DNA of 64,000 bases from the sequence record NC_054912.1, one strand, 5' to 3'. Below the pieces are notes generated by a model. It was not told the DNA's origin and did no database searches. It saw nothing but the letters and a program-made list of their open reading frames with translations. Both the position numbers and the translations under genes were made by a program. Shown here in pieces: positions 41,283-48,528 of this stretch; within the stretch, counting starts at the first letter, position 1; each line of letters begins with the position of its first letter. Source of the DNA: Escherichia phage vB_EcoM_F1.

Positions 41283-41785
41283 TTAAAAGTATTTTTTAAA
41301 ACTCATCATAACTTTATCATCAACATCATTATCAATCTGTGCAACAAGGTAAGATGACAGTTCTACTTCTTGTGGCGCGGATTGAACATTATCAGAATTA
41401 AGATATTCACGAATCCAAGGATATGGATGTTTAACCGGAGCATCGGTAATTGGACATGGAAGACCACACTGTTTCATACGAGATACAGTTAAGTAATCAA
41501 TAAAGCTCCACATGCTATTTGTATTTAATCCAGGAACATCGCCATCTTTAAATAAATGAACTGCCCAATCTTTTTCTTGGCGGTTAACTTCCATGAAAAT
41601 ATCAACTGCTTCTTGTTCACACTCTTGAGCAATTTTAACCCATTCATCGCCATCAGTGCCAAGTTGAAGTTGACGAATAATATATTGGGTGCCTTTAAGA
41701 TGAAGCTGCTCATCACGCGCAATGAACTTCATAATCTTGGCATTACCTTCCATGATTTCCATGTTCTTATGGAAGTTAAAGGTAC
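41283..41785 (-). CDS. nrdB: ribonucleotide reductase small subunit NrdB, exon 2
   Basis: encodes (C)TFNFHKNMEIMEGNAK...KKYF; joins exon 1 across a group I intron. Confidence 0.9.
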
Positions 41786-42876
41786 CGTTATGTTCGATTG
41801 AGCTCGCTAATTCTCAACCCGTTCTCTTATGAACTGCTGCATGTTACCATGCAGACCAGACTATATCACAATCCCGGAGGGATTCTCCCCATTTCGAGTC
41901 GCTTGACCCTACGTCCGAAGACTAGTCGTTGAACCTTGCTTTGCAATTGTCGCCGTGCCATCGTTTATATGTTGATGGTGATAAATCTTTCTTATCACAA
42001 TATGGACAATTCAATTGAATTCTATTTGGATTTAATTTACATCTGTCATTATGTTTTAGATAAAATCCAGGACCTTTACCAATGTGACCACAGAAATCAC
42101 ATGTAATTTCTTTTTGTGCAGGATGGGTCCCGTTCTTAACCATTTCTAATGTTTTTGCTGATGTTCTTTTCTTATGGTCTTCTGATAAGAAATGATGTGA
42201 ACCGTCATTTACCCGTTTTGATTGAGTTTCTGACTGCATTTTACCACCGCAAAATACATGAGTACCTTCTTTTATAGCTGCAATATTGCGTTCTTTAACT
42301 TTTGCAATATGCTCAGCTTGTTGAAAATTATGTATACCTAATGCAACTCTATTTAAATTAGATTTACGCTGTATTTCACCGTCTAAAAGATGAAATGTAC
42401 CATTTTCTATCTTAGATTTAATAGAGGCAATATTTTTAGCTCGTACTTCAGGGATATTAAAAATCTGGATTTCTCTAGATTTTGCGGCTTTAGAAGCTAA
42501 TTCAGAAATTTCTTCAGGAGAATATTTCATTCTAAGCTTTATAGCATGACAAGCCTGGTAATCTTTTTGAGCTAAATGTATATCATAATGTTCCTGTATA
42601 GAAAGGCACATCAAATTATCTAAATCATTATTTTCACGGTTACCGTCTTTATGATGGATTTCGTATGTTCTTCCATCAGAATCTTTAGGTATAGGTCCGT
42701 TAGCATCTATCCAAATTTTTCTATAGTTCAATTGTGCATCCTCTTAAAAGTATAATCATATTTATATTATACTAATTAAAGGTGCAAGCAAAACCTTGGC
42801 TGCTAGTTTTCCTATAAAGGACTTTCCAGCAATTAAAGGAGTTTTCGATAAACGTTACCGTTTAAAGGCGCATTTT
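41786..42876 (-). mobile_element. group I self-splicing intron in nrdB carrying an intact homing-endonuclease ORF
   Basis: exon 1 reading frame runs straight into a TAA at the 5' splice site; exon 2 is restored after a terminal G; the gap matches the T4 nrdB intron position. Confidence 0.85.
41922..42731 (-). CDS. HNH homing endonuclease, I-TevIII-like, full length
   Basis: 269 aa; HNH motif EIHHKDGNRENNDLDNLMCLSIQEHYDIH; C-terminal Cys clusters. Confidence 0.85.
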   Translation of the reverse strand: MNYRKIWIDANGPIPKDSDGRTYEIHHKDGNRENNDLDNLMCLSIQEHYDIHLAQKDYQACHAIKLRMKYSPEEISELASKAAKSREIQIFNIPEVRAKNIASIKSKIENGTFHLLDGEIQRKSNLNRVALGIHNFQQAEHIAKVKERNIAAIKEGTHVFCGGKMQSETQSKRVNDGSHHFLSEDHKKRTSAKTLEMVKNGTHPAQKEITCDFCGHIGKGPGFYLKHNDRCKLNPNRIQLNCPYCDKKDLSPSTYKRWHGDNCKARFND

Positions 42877-43552
42877 ACGCAAAAGATACATAAAAACGAA
42901 TAGCTTCCAATGCGTTGATTACATGCAAACAGAGGTAAAGAGATTTCATTAGCTCACGCTTCCAATATGTCTCATGCTCAATAGCATCTTCAATAACGTC
43001 TTCGTCTGCATTAATTTCTTTTTGGTATTCGATATCAGCTTTAGCATTTTCCCATTCACGGGTTTTAATCAGAACGTCATCATAATAGCGTCCAATGGAT
43101 TCAGCACGTTTCATAATAGCTTCATCTAATACAATCTCATCAAATACCTTTGACGGATCAGTATAAAGATTTCGCATGATATGAGTATATGAACGACTGT
43201 GAATAGTTTCACTAAAAGTCCATGTAGCAACCCATGTATCAAGACTTGGGTCTGAAATTAATGACATAAGTACAGCAGAAGGTGCACGACCCTGAATGCT
43301 ATCCAAAAGTGATTGATACTTCAGGTTGTTAGTAAAAATATTTTGCTGATACTGAGGAAGCTTATTAAATTGCGCAGCATCCATCATTAAGTTTACTTCT
43401 TCAGGACGCCAGAAAAATGATAAAGATTTCTCAGTAAGTTCTTCAAATACTCGATGCCGTTGAATATCATAACGCGCAATACCAAGACCTGAACCAAAAA
43501 ACATAGGTTCTTTTAAAACATCAACTGGGTTTGTATTAAAAACTGTGCTCAT
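42877..43552 (-). CDS. nrdB: ribonucleotide reductase small subunit NrdB, exon 1
   Basis: MSTVFNTNPVDVLKEPMFFGSGLGIARYD...RFYVSFA. Confidence 0.9.
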
Positions 43553-43603
43553 AAATTTTCCACTTAGTTAATAGATAGTGACTCGTCCGTGAGTCAAATT
43601 ATA

Positions 43604-45868
43604 TCATAATTTACAGGATGAACAATCTTCAGCTTTTGGAGTTTCTATTTCATAATCATCAGTACCAGAACCATCACGGGTATTATGATAATAGAAATTT
43701 TTTCCGCCAAAATACCAAAAATACAAAAGGTCATCAATCATTATTGACATTGGAACCTTTCCTTTTGGAAAAATCTGCGGGTCATAATATGTATTCGCTG
43801 AAGCTGATTGACATACCCATTTCAGCATAATAGCTACCTGTGTAAGATAAGGTTTATTACCTTTCTTAGCTAATTTCCACGTATAATCATATAGGTCTAT
43901 GTTATGCTCAATATTGGGCACGACTTGATTAAAGGAGCCCTCTTTTGATTCTTTAACAGAGACTGGTCCACGTGGAGGCTCGATACCGTTTGTACTGTTA
44001 GAAACTTGGGAAGATGACTCACATGGCATAAGTGCTGATAATGTGCTATTACGGATGCCAAAGAGCTTAAGGTCTTCCCGCAGCGACGACCAGTCACAAA
44101 CGTATTTTGGAGCTGCGATTTGGTCAATCTTTTTATTGTACCAGTCGATAGGTAATTCGCCTCGAGACCAACGAGTGTCTGAATAATATTCGCAAGGTCC
44201 TTTTTCTTTGGCGAGCTTGATGGATGCTTTAATGAGTCCATACTGTAATCTCTCAAATAGTTCATGTGTTAAATCGTTAGCATCTTCATAAGAAGCAAAG
44301 TTACTTGCCAGCCAAGCTGCATAGTTAGTAACACCTACACCGAGGTTACGACGCTTTTTAGCTTTTTCTGCTTCAGGAACTGGATATCCTTGGTAATCCA
44401 AAAGATTATCAAGAGCACGAACTTGGACTTCTGCCAATTCATTAATTTTATCTTGGTCTTGCCAGTCAAAATTATCCAGTACGAATGCGCTAAGGGTACA
44501 AAGCCCAATTTCAGCATCAGGGCTATTCACATCATTTGTTGGAATAGCAATTTCACAGCACAAGTTACTCTGACGAATAGGTGCCTTTTCACGAATAAAC
44601 GGAGTATAGTTATTCGTATTATCAATGAACTGCACATAAATCCTTGCTGTTCCTGAGCGTTCAGTCATGAGCAATTCAAATAGTTCACGGGCTTTAATAC
44701 GCTTTTTACGAATATTAGGGTCTTTTTCTGCTGCTTCGTATAATTCACGGAAACGGTCTTGGTCTTTAAAATAAGAATAATAAAGCTCGCCACCCATTTC
44801 ATGCGGACTGAACAAAGTAATGTAATCGTTCTTTCCGAATCGTTCCATCATCAAATCATTCAGCTGAACACCATAATCCATATGACGAATGCGGTTTTCT
44901 TCTACGCCTTTGTTATTTTTCAAAACGAGAAGATTTTCAACTTCCAAATGCCAAATAGGATAATAAGCAGTAGCAGCGCCGCCACGAATTCCACCCTGTG
45001 AACATGATTTAACTGCAGTCTGAAAATGTTTCCAAAAAGGAATAACACCAGTATGGCGTACTTCACCCATGCCAATCTTAGAACCTTCAGCACGAATCAT
45101 ACCAACGTTAATACCAATTCCAGCGCGTTTAGAGATATATTCAACAATTGAAGCGGAAGCCTTATTGATAGACTTCAATGAATCACCTGCCTCAATAACA
45201 ACACATGAACTAAACTGTCGAGTCGGAGTACGACAACCAGCCATAATAGGAGTTGGCAATGAAATCTGTCGAGTAGATACTGCTTCATAAAAACGGATAA
45301 CGTGTTTTAGTCTATCAACAGATTCATCTTGATGCAATGCCATTCCAATAGTCATAAATGCAAACTGTGGAGTTTCATAAATTTGACCAGTGGTTTTATC
45401 TTTAACTAAATATTTTTCTTTTAATTGCATCGCCCCGGAATAAGTAAATTCCATATCCCGTTCGTGCTTAATTTTTGATTCTAAAAATGTAATTTCTTCT
45501 GCTGAATATTTTGACAATAATTCAGGGTCATATTTACCTTCATTTACACAGTAAGAAATATGGTCAATAAATGAACGTGGTTCATACTGCCCGTAAACAT
45601 GCTTACGAAGAGCAAACATTAAACAGCGTGCAGCTACATATTGATAATCAGGTTCTTCAACCGAAATAGAATTCGCAGCGGCCTTAATGACAATAGTCTG
45701 AATATCATCAGTTGTCATTCCATCACGGAGATATGATTTAATATTTTCATATAATTCATAAGGATCTACTGATGTTCCTTCAGCTGCCCAAGATAAAACT
45801 TTAATAATTTTTTGCGGGTCAAAGCTCTGAGAAACACCACTACTTTTGATAACATTAATTAATTGCAT
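43604..45868 (-). CDS. nrdA: ribonucleotide reductase large subunit NrdA
   Basis: 754 aa, [25 protein letters not shown]... Confidence 0.96.
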   Translation of the reverse strand: MQLINVIKSSGVSQSFDPQKIIKVLSWAAEGTSVDPYELYENIKSYLRDGMTTDDIQTIVIKAAANSISVEEPDYQYVAARCLMFALRKHVYGQYEPRSFIDHISYCVNEGKYDPELLSKYSAEEITFLESKIKHERDMEFTYSGAMQLKEKYLVKDKTTGQIYETPQFAFMTIGMALHQDESVDRLKHVIRFYEAVSTRQISLPTPIMAGCRTPTRQFSSCVVIEAGDSLKSINKASASIVEYISKRAGIGINVGMIRAEGSKIGMGEVRHTGVIPFWKHFQTAVKSCSQGGIRGGAATAYYPIWHLEVENLLVLKNNKGVEENRIRHMDYGVQLNDLMMERFGKNDYITLFSPHEMGGELYYSYFKDQDRFRELYEAAEKDPNIRKKRIKARELFELLMTERSGTARIYVQFIDNTNNYTPFIREKAPIRQSNLCCEIAIPTNDVNSPDAEIGLCTLSAFVLDNFDWQDQDKINELAEVQVRALDNLLDYQGYPVPEAEKAKKRRNLGVGVTNYAAWLASNFASYEDANDLTHELFERLQYGLIKASIKLAKEKGPCEYYSDTRWSRGELPIDWYNKKIDQIAAPKYVCDWSSLREDLKLFGIRNSTLSALMPCESSSQVSNSTNGIEPPRGPVSVKESKEGSFNQVVPNIEHNIDLYDYTWKLAKKGNKPYLTQVAIMLKWVCQSASANTYYDPQIFPKGKVPMSIMIDDLLYFWYFGGKNFYYHNTRDGSGTDDYEIETPKAEDCSSCKL

Positions 45869-46185: not shown

Positions 46186-46402
46186 ATTGTTCTTCCGTTA
46201 AAACAGTAATATCGTAGTAACAGTCAGAAGAAGTTTTAACTGTAGAAATTTTATTATCAAAATACTCACGAGTCATTTTATGAGTATAATATTTTTTGCC
46301 ATAAATGATAATAGGCTGATTTGGTCCTGGAACTTCTAACTCGCTTGGGTTAGGAAGTGTAAAAAGAACGGCACCAGAAGTATCTTTAAATCGTAAAATC
46401 AT
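46139..46402 (-). CDS. nrdA.2: hypothetical protein nrdA.2
   Basis: 87-aa ORF. Confidence 0.55.
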
Positions 46403-46710
46403 ATTGCCATTTTCCCTTTAATTGCTGGATGCGATTCATAATTTTCAAGGATAAAATCTTTCGGTTTCATGTATTCAGTTAACCAGTAAAGCTGCGTTTC
46501 GGTGTCACAATTTCCAAACTCTATAGGCCAATCAATTTTAAGTTCACACAGTTCTTTAGGCTCACGACGTAAAATTTCTTTACATTGCTCAGTATGATTC
46601 ATATAGATGTGAGTATTACCACCGGAAAATATCAAATCTCCTGGGATAAGATTACACATCTTAGCCACAATATGCGTCAAGGCAGCGTACGAGGCAATGT
46701 TGAATGGTAG
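46399..46710 (-). CDS. td: thymidylate synthase, exon 2
   Basis: encodes [39 protein letters not shown]...; the ORF's ATG is the last 3 nt of the intron. Confidence 0.92.
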
Positions 46711-47156
46711 CATTATGTTCAGATAAGGTCGTTAATCTTACCCCGGAATTATATCCAGCTGCATGTCACCATGCAGATCAGACTATATCTCCAACTTGTT
46801 AAAGCAAGTTGTCTATCGTTTCGAGTCACTTGACCCTACTCCCCAAAGGGATAGTCGTTAGGCATTTATGTAGAACCAATTCCATTTATCAGATTTTACA
46901 CGATAAGTAACTAATCCAGACGAAATTTTAAAATGCCTCTTCCATCTCTTTTCAAAATCTTTAGCACTTCCTACATATACTTTATTGTTTAAAGTATTTT
47001 TAATCTGATAAATTCCGCTTTTCATAAATACCTCTTTAAATATAGAAGTATTTATGAAAGGGCAGTCCTACAATTTAGCACGGGATTGTCTACTAGAGAG
47101 GTTCCCCGTTTAGATAGATTACAAGTATAAGTCACCTTATACTCAGGCCTCAATTA
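46711..47156 (-). mobile_element. td group I intron, shortened (446 nt) with internally deleted I-TevI ORF
   Basis: 5' end TAATTGAGGCCTGAGTATAAGGTGACTTATACTTGTAATCTATCTAAACGGGGAACC matches the T4 td intron 5' sequence as recalled; in-frame TAA at the 5' splice site. Confidence 0.88.
46858..47025 (-). pseudogene. I-TevI (GIY-YIG homing endonuclease) remnant, 55 aa, internal deletion
   Basis: MKSGIYQIKNTLNNKVYVGSAKDFEKRWKRHFK fused directly to ISSGLVTYRVKSDKWNWFYINA; junction at the repeated RHFK coding sequence. Confidence 0.8.

Positions 47157-48528
<1,372 letters not shown>

What the first reader, a model, noticed from the sequence alone, without database searches (positions are those of the whole stretch)
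46711..47156. td intron retains its ends but has lost most of I-TevI through a deletion between two RHFK-encoding repeats
The td intron here is 446 nt, against about 1 kb recalled for T4. Its 5' end matches the T4 td intron sequence and the 3' splice site (terminal ATG then CTACC exon) is intact. The residual ORF (46858-47025, minus) encodes the first 33 residues of I-TevI (MKSGIYQIKNTLNNKVYVGSAKDFEKRWKRHFK) joined in frame to the last 22 (ISSGLVTYRVKSDKWNWFYINA). The junction falls exactly where the coding sequence for RHFK occurs twice in full-length I-TevI, implying deletion of about 190 codons by recombination between short direct repeats. It is a snapshot of homing-endonuclease decay inside a still-functional ribozyme, in the same genome that holds an intact nrdB-intron endonuclease.
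Basis: partly seen in the sequence, partly recalled or inferred. Interest (0 to 1): 0.6.

Follow-up and report, generated by a model that had tools for sequence, protein, structure and literature searches.

The report
td intron with deleted homing endonuclease
The self-splicing intron in this phage's thymidylate synthase gene has lost 190 codons of its homing-endonuclease gene through a deletion between two 9-base repeats; this is a clean natural example of a known kind of selfish-gene decay, and the crippled intron occurs in many related phages.

Summary
Window 46711-47156 (-) is a 446-nt T4-type td group I intron. Compared with T4 (1017 nt) it lacks exactly 570 nt, which is I-TevI codons 34-223. 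The deletion is bounded in T4 by two perfect 9-nt repeats, CATTTTAAA (11/12 identical as AGNCATTTTAAA, encoding RHFK), and one copy survives at 46927-46935. The 55-aa remnant ORF keeps only fragments of the GIY-YIG and DNA-binding domains. The ribozyme core is base-for-base identical to that of full-length introns, and exon joining gives an intact 286-aa thymidylate synthase. Splicing itself is inferred, not shown.

The window is identical to phage vB_EcoM_FN in the stretches compared. The same junction occurs in three other isolates, one of them classified in another genus, and in at least 23 assembly contigs. Identical deleted introns sit in td exons that differ by up to 26%, so the endonuclease-less intron has moved between phages.

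All 13 deleted introns examined carry one of two changes in the I-TevI late-promoter octamer. No full-length intron examined carries either change.

This is a new member of a known kind (homing-endonuclease degeneration, as in T4 I-TevIII). Interest is moderate.

The parts
47157..47705 (-). td (thymidylate synthase) exon 1, 549 nt. The in-frame stop TAA is the first three bases of the intron.
   Evidence: ORF list. Exon 1 plus exon 2 translate to an intact 286-aa protein that is 256/286 identical to T4 Td.
46711..47156 (-). td group I intron (T4 type, subgroup IA2 by recall), 446 nt. It equals the 1016-nt form minus 570 nt.
   Evidence: RF00028 aligns over its full model (1-253) at 46759-47166 with 40.5 bits, E 1e-8, with a 197-nt insertion in the P6 loop.
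47065..47156 (-). 5' ribozyme core (intron 1-92): internal guide/P1, P2, and the 5' strands of P3, P4, P5, P6 and P6a.
   Evidence: Identical to the full-length introns. The helices are recovered by RNAalifold and every pair forms in the window sequence.
47049..47056 (-). Altered I-TevI late-promoter octamer, overlapping the I-TevI operator. It reads CATAAATA here, against AATAAATA in every full-length intron examined.
   Evidence: Promoter/operator role from PMC2988022. Late-promoter consensus from PMC2988020.
47020..47059 (-). Hairpin that sequesters the Shine-Dalgarno sequence (47031-47036) and the AUG (47023-47025) of the intron ORF. In this window it is a perfect 16-bp stem.
   Evidence: Folds at -21.7 kcal/mol, against -16.0 for the wild-type sequence. 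C102 pairs with the G of the AUG. Known regulatory role from PMC2988022 and PMC3073962.
46858..47025 (-). Remnant I-TevI ORF, 55 codons: residues 1-33 fused in frame to residues 224-245.
   Evidence: Pfam matches only partial GIY-YIG (profile 2-51 of 78) and the last 23 positions of I-TevI_DNA-bd; the zinc finger is absent.
46927..46935 (-). Deletion junction: the single surviving copy of the 9-nt repeat CATTTTAAA.
46711..46875 (-). 3' ribozyme core (intron 282-446): 3' strands of P6a and P6, then P7, P7.1, P7.2, the 3' strand of P3, P8, the 3' strand of P7, P9, P9.1, P9.2 and the terminal G.
   Evidence: No differences from Pu-Krd-SF5 across the retained 3' 225 nt. Helices recovered, with compensatory changes among natural variants in P8 and P9.2. 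Positions.
46399..46710 (-). td exon 2, 312 nt including the stop codon.
41922..42731 (-). Context: full-length I-TevIII (269-aa HNH endonuclease) inside the nrdB group I intron of the same genome.

Best explanation
The phage in this window is identical to Escherichia phage vB_EcoM_FN in every stretch compared. Its thymidylate synthase gene carries the T4-type td group I intron. An ancestor of this intron held the full 245-codon I-TevI gene in the loop closed by P6a.

A single illegitimate event between the two 9-bp direct repeats CATTTTAAA removed the 570 bp between them together with one repeat copy. The event was either replication slippage or microhomology-mediated recombination. The repeats happen to encode His-Phe-Lys in the same frame in the nuclease domain and in the DNA-binding domain. 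What remains is an in-frame 55-codon stub that lacks most of the catalytic domain, the linker, the zinc finger and most of the DNA-binding domain. It therefore cannot cut DNA or repress its own promoter.

The ribozyme parts lie outside the deleted stretch and are unchanged. The intron should therefore still splice and give a normal 286-aa enzyme.

The intron is retained for two reasons. Only a base-perfect excision would restore td. An occupied site is also not a substrate for I-TevI from co-infecting phages.

The deleted intron has since been passed between phages, by general recombination or by I-TevI supplied in trans. The expression signals of the dead gene are beginning to change.

Shown here: the deletion and its endpoints, core identity, exon integrity, distribution, and the haplotypes. 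Inferred: the slippage/recombination mechanism, splicing competence, loss of protein function, and the route of spread.
For: Deletion and endpoints:
- One 570-nt gap bounded by CATTTTAAA repeats, with one copy retained.
- This is one of only three 9-nt exact repeat pairs that lie wholly inside the ORF-bearing zone taken as dispensable (T4 intron 96-850). The only longer repeat (12 nt) has one copy in P2, so a deletion between its copies would remove core elements.

Ribozyme and host gene:
- Core identical to full-length introns.
- All helices form and RF00028 aligns end to end.
- The ORF's last 20 nt, needed for P6a/P6/P7, are retained (PMC3073962).
- Spliced td is intact at 286 aa.

Protein remnant:
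- Pfam sees only domain fragments.

It is real, not an assembly error:
- The same junction occurs in FN (Portugal), vB_EcoM_112/e11-2, G28 (Germany) and FL18 (Denmark, classified as Mosigvirus).
- The exact 55-aa product is indexed in 31 blocks of the public-assembly collection; the 23 contigs read all carry it.

Spread after the deletion:
- FN and contig L020 have identical introns, but their exon 1 sequences differ at 75 of 549 positions.
- G28 and L022 differ by one intron base, but by 80 of 312 positions in exon 2.

Decay of expression signals:
- All 13 deleted introns examined carry either A102C or a 1-nt deletion in the late-promoter octamer.
- Probes specific to each variant match only deletion carriers.
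- Full-length introns, including divergent ones, keep AATAAATA.
Against: - No RNA or enzyme data exist, so splicing of this shortened intron in vivo is unproven. Shortening the loop, and placing the start codon 570 nt closer to the core, could in principle change folding or ribosome interference.
- The RF00028 score (40.5 bits) is below Rfam's gathering score of 50. The intact nrdB intron also scores below it (38.1).
- The sequences cannot distinguish one deletion event from two or more identical events at the same repeat.
- td is dispensable in thyA+ laboratory hosts (my recollection), so a non-splicing intron would not necessarily be lethal.
Confidence: 0.9

Rival explanations
1. The same deletion arose independently two or more times, because the 9-bp repeat is a hot spot. 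On this view the two haplogroups (446 nt with A102C; 445 nt with a 1-nt promoter deletion) are separate events rather than descendants of one deleted ancestor.
For: - Microhomology fixes the product, so independent events would be indistinguishable at the junction.
- The two haplogroups share no derived marker other than the deletion itself.
- The repeat pair ties for longest among those wholly inside the ORF-bearing zone taken as dispensable (T4 intron 96-850).
Against: - Two other 9-nt repeat pairs in the same zone (135-nt and 33-nt spacings) have left no deletion alleles among the sequences I examined.
- Within each haplogroup the deleted intron clearly spread by descent into very different exon backgrounds, so spread alone can explain the distribution.
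- The more divergent I-TevI orthologues lack the perfect second repeat.
Confidence: 0.25
2. The promoter-octamer changes are adaptive, not neutral decay. Once the autorepressor I-TevI is lost, its late promoter fires unchecked. Variants that weaken the promoter, or (in this window) lock the ribosome-binding site and AUG into a stronger hairpin, were then selected because they protect td splicing or save cost.
For: - The mutation that defines each haplogroup lies in the same 8-bp element of a 446-nt intron.
- That element is unchanged in every full-length intron examined, while neighbouring bases vary.
- A102C also closes the only mismatch in the regulatory hairpin, changing -16.0 to -21.7 kcal/mol.
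- I-TevI is an autorepressor at this promoter, and untimely translation of the ORF impairs td splicing (PMC2988022).
Against: - There are only two independent events, and the pattern was noticed after the fact.
- The second mutation weakens the hairpin (-14.0 kcal/mol), so the two have no common RNA effect.
- Its product, TAATAATA, could still be a weak late promoter (PMC2988020).
- Two frameshifted, presumably inactive I-TevI alleles from metagenomes keep the intact octamer.
- A T4 strain with the operator replaced was reported as viable (PMC2988022).
Confidence: 0.15
3. The 55-residue product has been kept because it does something, for example as a small regulatory or anti-endonuclease peptide, rather than being a dead remnant.
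For: - The reading frame is open, and its start signals and native stop are retained.
- The exact peptide recurs in many contigs.
Against: - The frame is open automatically, because the repeats are in the same phase.
- The peptide lacks the catalytic residues beyond position 33, the zinc finger and most of the DNA-binding domain.
- Carriers show non-synonymous changes (V to I in FL18, K to N in e112) as readily as synonymous ones.
- Its promoter is altered in every copy, and in this window its start codon is buried more deeply.
- The last codons are conserved for RNA-structure reasons.
Confidence: 0.04
4. The short intron is an assembly or cloning artefact, caused by collapse of reads between the repeats.
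For: None, beyond the general possibility.
Against: - A 9-nt repeat is far too short to collapse an assembly.
- The identical junction is present in four isolates sequenced by different groups, and in ENA and Logan assemblies from unrelated samples.
- Those copies carry lineage-specific linked mutations.
Confidence: 0.01

Closest known systems
T4 nrdB intron with defective I-TevIII (Eddy & Gold 1991, cited in PMC2988022; functional 269-aa orthologue in RB3, PMC1865063)
   Same: A T-even phage group I intron whose endonuclease gene suffered a large internal deletion. The intron still interrupts, and is removed from, a nucleotide-metabolism gene. The deleted allele is shared by many phages; about 35 of the 118 matching records cover only roughly 40% of the query or less, like T4.
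   Different: The gene (td versus nrdB), the endonuclease family (GIY-YIG versus HNH) and the deleted portion all differ. In this genome the roles are reversed relative to T4: I-TevIII is intact and I-TevI is deleted. I could not retrieve the 1991 paper to compare how its endpoints were formed.
[quoted passage not shown]
   Same: Most of the I-TevI ORF is removed from the P6a loop while P1-P9.2 are kept. Such constructs self-splice, which is the main reason to expect the natural 446-nt intron to splice.
   Different: The engineered introns are about 250-340 nt and remove the ORF start signals as well. The natural allele keeps the promoter region, the hairpin, the start codon and 55 codons, and arose spontaneously at a microhomology.
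Homing-endonuclease life cycle: invasion, fixation, degeneration, loss (yeast studies cited in PMC2988022; survey of T-even introns by Sandegren & Sjoberg 2004, recalled from its abstract; paper not held)
   Same: It represents the degeneration stage: the endonuclease gene is inactivated by deletion while the intron persists.
   Different: As far as I could find, the published T-even survey sequences held in the collection (T6, LZ2, U5 td genes) all have the full-length td intron. This particular I-TevI deletion appears only in later genome records, annotated as 'hypothetical protein' or 'endonuclease I-TevI'.
Trans-homing of a defunct intron (T4 MobE mobilising the nrdB intron; PMC2790892)
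   Same: An intron with no working endonuclease is nevertheless inherited across phage backgrounds. Here, identical deleted td introns lie in exons that differ by 14-26%.
   Different: No free-standing endonuclease gene flanks td in this window. Some other carriers do have a 243-aa GIY-YIG gene about 0.25 kb downstream of td exon 2 (L020, L022). Whether spread used I-TevI in trans, a neighbouring endonuclease or plain recombination is untested.

Membership tests
Group I intron, T4 td type (subgroup IA2) | Inserted at the td intron site, and removing it restores an intact thymidylate synthase reading frame | tested here: met
   The exon junction GGGT|CTACC is as in T4. The joined exons give 286 aa, 256/286 identical to T4 Td.
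Group I intron, T4 td type (subgroup IA2) | 5' splice site U paired with G in P1, and a terminal G at the 3' end of the intron | tested here: met
   Exon UUGGGU pairs with intron GCCUGA, including the U-G pair (columns 6-10/17-21). The intron ends ...AUAAUG.
Group I intron, T4 td type (subgroup IA2) | Conserved core helices P3-P8, plus the extra P7.1/P7.2 and P9.1/P9.2 helices of this subgroup | tested here: met
   All are recovered by RNAalifold on eight natural variants, with compensatory changes in P8 and P9.2. The window sequence forms every pair. The P7 strands GACUAU/AUAGUC are present. The core is identical to full-length introns.
Group I intron, T4 td type (subgroup IA2) | Match to Rfam RF00028 at the curated gathering score | tested here: inconclusive
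   40.5 bits against a cut-off of 50, E 1e-8, full model 1-253 aligned with a 197-nt loop insertion. The nrdB intron with its intact ORF also falls short at 38.1 bits. The cut-off therefore says little about these ORF-bearing phage introns.
Group I intron, T4 td type (subgroup IA2) | Self-splicing activity | not testable with these tools
   Needs in vitro transcription or RT-PCR.
I-TevI (GIY-YIG homing endonuclease) | Complete GIY-YIG catalytic domain (about residues 1-92) | tested here: not met
   Only residues 1-33 remain. The Pfam GIY-YIG match is partial and runs into unrelated C-terminal sequence.
I-TevI (GIY-YIG homing endonuclease) | Linker with zinc finger | tested here: not met
   PF22635 matches T4 I-TevI residues 149-179 but not the remnant.
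I-TevI (GIY-YIG homing endonuclease) | Complete C-terminal DNA-binding domain | tested here: not met
   Only profile positions 29-51 of the 51 in PF20987 remain. The ORF is a gene remnant, not a family member in any functional sense.
Deletion between short direct repeats (slipped mispairing / microhomology-mediated) | The parental sequence has the same short repeat at both ends of the missing segment, and the product keeps exactly one copy | tested here: met
   CATTTTAAA lies at T4 intron 223-231 and 793-801, and a single copy lies at window 46927-46935. The flanks come from the left and right copies respectively.

The most novel reading that the evidence does not exclude
The deleted td intron may be a non-autonomous 'parasite of a parasite'. 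On this reading it still spreads through T4-like phage populations, across genera, by using I-TevI made by co-infecting phages. Loss of the autorepressor would then have selected, twice independently, for mutations in the 8-bp late promoter/operator. In this window that mutation also locks the start codon into a stronger hairpin, so the orphaned promoter and ORF no longer disturb td expression.
Probability: 0.15. Interest if true: 0.55.

Novelty: new member of a known kind. Interest (0 to 1): 0.35.

Why it matters
This is a base-precise natural example of how a homing endonuclease gene dies inside an intron that must stay functional. The deletion used the one large repeat-bounded segment that spares the ribozyme core and the ORF's last 20 nt, which double as core structure.

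Because T4 td/I-TevI is the reference system for intron homing, the allele offers three things:
- A ready-made natural test of trans-homing.
- A test of what happens to an autoregulated promoter once its repressor is gone.
- A marker for tracking recombination among T4-like phages.

For annotation, the 55-codon ORF is currently labelled 'homing endonuclease' or 'hypothetical protein', and td is split into two genes in the public records. Both should be corrected.

Tried and rejected
- Rfam at gathering thresholds over the whole window found nothing. The introns only appear with E-value thresholds.
- Exact-junction scans of IMG/VR and of JGI metagenome contigs found nothing. A control pattern from full-length I-TevI hit only one IMG/VR contig, so those negatives carry little weight. 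The exact-protein look-up was the productive route.
- The key survey paper (Sandegren & Sjoberg 2004, JBC) is not held. I therefore could not confirm whether this allele was described there. The td records of that study that are in the collection are full length.
- I first thought G28 might have a different crossover point. It is only a synonymous G-to-A change four bases upstream of the repeat.
- A megablast count suggested about 40 intron records with a changed promoter region. Fetching examples showed divergent but full-length introns with the octamer intact and changes only in neighbouring bases.
- I looked for other inactivated I-TevI alleles to test the 'compensatory promoter' idea. The two frameshift alleles found keep the normal promoter, which weakens that idea.
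- An assembly artefact and a functional micro-protein were both considered and rejected (see the rival explanations).

Full report
**What is at the coordinates**

On the minus strand, td exon 1 (47157-47705) ends ...TTCTTGGGT. The next bases, TAATTGAGGCCTGAG..., are the start of the T4 td intron. The intron ends ...GAACATAATG at 46711 and is followed by exon 2, CTACC.... It is 446 nt long.

The window is 100% identical to Escherichia phage vB_EcoM_FN (MZ170041, poultry sewage, Portugal) in each stretch I compared. In that record td is annotated as two separate genes and the intron ORF as 'hypothetical protein'.

**Comparison with T4**

The td intron in NC_000866 is 1017 nt and holds the 245-codon I-TevI gene at intron 133-870. 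A global alignment gives one 570-nt gap plus three small differences:
- An extra T at position 93. Among the sequences compared, only the T4 record has it.
- A102C.
- C950A, where A is the commoner allele among the phages compared.

In T4 the 9-mer CATTTTAAA occurs at intron 223-231 and again at 793-801. With its flank the repeat is AG[G/A]CATTTTAAA, which encodes Arg-His-Phe-Lys at residues 30-33 and 220-223. The window has a single copy at 46927-46935. It is preceded by the left-hand flank (AGAGG) and followed by the right-hand flank (ATTTCG). The crossover therefore lies inside the 9-mer.

**Is the ribozyme intact?**

- Published work places P6 base pair 1 at G78-C865 (PMC2729099).
- It also shows that only the last 20 nt of the I-TevI ORF contribute to P6a, P6 and P7 (PMC3073962).
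- The missing segment lies between these elements. It starts 130 nt after the last 5' core base and ends more than 50 nt before the first 3' core base.
- Outside the deletion, the window intron differs from the full-length intron of phage Pu-Krd-SF5 only at A102C, which is not a core position. There are no differences in the 3' 225 nt.
- RF00028 aligns over its whole model with a 197-nt insertion in the P6 loop (40.5 bits, E 1e-8). This is below the gathering score, but so is the ORF-bearing nrdB intron (38.1 bits).
- I removed the ORF from eight natural td-intron variants and ran RNAalifold. It recovered P1, P2, P3, P4, P5, P6, P6a, P7.1, P7.2, P8, P9, P9.1 and P9.2, with compensatory changes in P8 and P9.2. 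The window sequence forms every pair.
- The two strands of the P7 pseudoknot are present.
- Joining the exons gives an intact 286-aa thymidylate synthase.
- Engineered td introns with far shorter P6a loops splice (PMC2729099, PMC8554844).

I therefore rate a working ribozyme as very likely. It remains an inference.

**The remnant protein**

[quoted passage not shown] The zinc finger is gone. The stub cannot be an endonuclease, and it cannot be the autorepressor that I-TevI normally is (PMC2988022).

**How the deletion probably arose**

A deletion that keeps exactly one copy of a short direct repeat is the signature of slipped mispairing or microhomology-mediated recombination.

Within the T4 intron, the only longer exact repeat (12 nt) has one copy in P2. 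A deletion between its copies would destroy the ribozyme. Among repeats lying wholly in the ORF-bearing zone I took as dispensable (T4 intron 96-850), three 9-mers tie for longest, and this pair spans by far the largest segment.

The in-frame outcome follows automatically, because the two copies are in the same codon phase. More divergent I-TevI genes (Klebsiella phage HMGUkp2, Proteus phage ABTNLPp2) lack the perfect second copy. The T4-type intron is thus specifically predisposed to this deletion.

**Distribution**

A 101-nt probe across the junction matches in one uninterrupted piece only four distinct phages:
- FN
- vB_EcoM_112 (e11/2)
- vB_EcoM-G28
- FL18, which is classified in Mosigvirus rather than Tequatrovirus

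Roughly 170 other records carry the two halves about 570 nt apart.

The exact 55-aa product is indexed in 31 blocks of the public assemblies. All 23 contigs read carry it, including sewage metagenomes and Logan assemblies. An assembly artefact is excluded.

**Two haplogroups**

The 13 deleted introns I extracted fall into two groups:
- Group A (446 nt: FN, L018, L020, L021) has A102C.
- Group B (445 nt: e11/2, G28, FL18, L019, L022-L026) lacks one A, turning AATAAATA into AAT-AATA.

Both changes fall in the 8-bp late promoter that drives I-TevI and overlaps its operator (PMC2988022; late-promoter consensus in PMC2988020).

Neither change was seen in any full-length intron:
- Probes specific to each variant match at 100% only deletion carriers.
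- 160 records keep an exact 28-mer across the promoter.
- Every divergent full-length intron I fetched keeps TTTAATAAATAC while neighbouring bases vary.

In this window A102C also pairs with the G of the AUG. It closes the only mismatch in the hairpin that hides the ribosome-binding site, strengthening it from -16.0 to -21.7 kcal/mol. The group B change weakens the hairpin to -14.0 kcal/mol.

The simplest reading is loss of constraint once the gene is dead. An adaptive reading, silencing a promoter that has lost its repressor, is possible. It rests on two events, and it is weakened by two frameshifted I-TevI alleles that keep the normal promoter.

**Spread after the deletion**

- Identical or nearly identical deleted introns sit in very different td exons. 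FN and L020 show 0 intron differences but 75 of 549 differences in exon 1. G28 and L022 show 1 intron difference but 80 of 312 differences in exon 2.
- Exon differences begin 19-37 nt upstream and 3-12 nt downstream of the splice sites.
- The e11/2 intron combines the group B 5' part with a U5-like 3' part. This includes a compensatory pair in P8, and indicates recombination inside the intron.

The endonuclease-less intron has therefore been moved between phage backgrounds. Possible routes are general recombination, I-TevI supplied in trans, or a neighbouring endonuclease as shown for the T4 nrdB intron (PMC2790892). I cannot tell which. Nor can I tell whether groups A and B descend from one deletion or from two.

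**Context**

The same genome has the full-length 269-aa I-TevIII in its nrdB intron. It is 99.5% identical to the functional RB3 gene, whereas T4 has the deleted version. Relative to T4, the pattern of which intron endonuclease is dead is reversed.

**Verdict**

Both the finding and the interpretation are correct. The phenomenon is degeneration of a homing endonuclease gene inside a persisting intron, which is well known, with T4's own I-TevIII as the textbook case. This is therefore a new member of a known kind, already present but mis-annotated in public genomes.

The added points are modestly interesting and experimentally tractable:
- the exact microhomology
- horizontal spread of the dead intron
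- promoter changes linked to the deletion

Noticed in passing
window 41780-42875 (-), ORF 41922-42731: The nrdB gene is also split by a group I intron (RF00028, 38.1 bits at 41837-42114). It carries a full-length 269-aa HNH endonuclease that is 99.5% identical to functional RB3 I-TevIII. 83 of 118 matching phage records cover at least 80% of the gene; about 35, including T4, cover only roughly 40% or less.
   Followed up: partly
window 43552-43604: nrdA (43604-45868) is followed directly by nrdB exon 1 (42875-43552). The mobE and nrdB.1 genes that sit between them in T4 are absent here. In phage e11/2 a MobE-like gene instead splits the nrdA annotation.
   Followed up: no
whole window: Rfam at gathering thresholds reports no RNA family in 64 kb, even though two bona fide group I introns are present. 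ORF-bearing phage introns fall 10-12 bits below the RF00028 cut-off.
   Followed up: yes
L001 (T4 NC_000866) td intron position 93: The T4 reference record has an extra T (GGACTTGCCC versus GGACTGCCC in every other phage compared). It lies just upstream of the I-TevI operator/late promoter and makes the intron 1017 rather than 1016 nt.
   Followed up: no
L003 (phage e11/2) intron 3' part; L013 (phage U5): The deleted intron of e11/2 shares six substitutions with the full-length U5 intron downstream of the junction. These include a compensatory A-U to U-A swap in P8. It does not share U5's 5' marker, which makes it a recombinant between intron lineages.
   Followed up: partly
L018 (ENA sewage metagenome contig): A group A deleted intron has two further changes. 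One base is lost between the Shine-Dalgarno sequence and the AUG. There is also an A-to-G change three bases before the 3' splice site (ATAGTG|CT). This may be further decay, or a sequencing error.
   Followed up: no
L020 3858-4589 and L022 3783-4514 (minus strand in locus): In some carriers of the deleted td intron, a 243-aa free-standing GIY-YIG gene lies on the opposite strand between nrdA.2 and nrdA, about 0.25 kb downstream of td exon 2. It is a candidate for mobilising the dead intron in trans. It is absent from this window.
   Followed up: no
L035 and L036 (metagenome contigs): These are full-length td introns whose I-TevI is split by single-base frameshifts (+1 near intron 657; -1 at 464). 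They may be other early-stage inactivations or assembly errors.
   Followed up: partly
records MZ375356.1 and OL964745.1 ('Escherichia phage T4', 152-160 kb): In one search the two halves of the junction probe lie 8-10 nt closer together than in wild-type T4. This suggests small deletions inside I-TevI in these shortened T4 genomes, which are possibly engineered strains.
   Followed up: no
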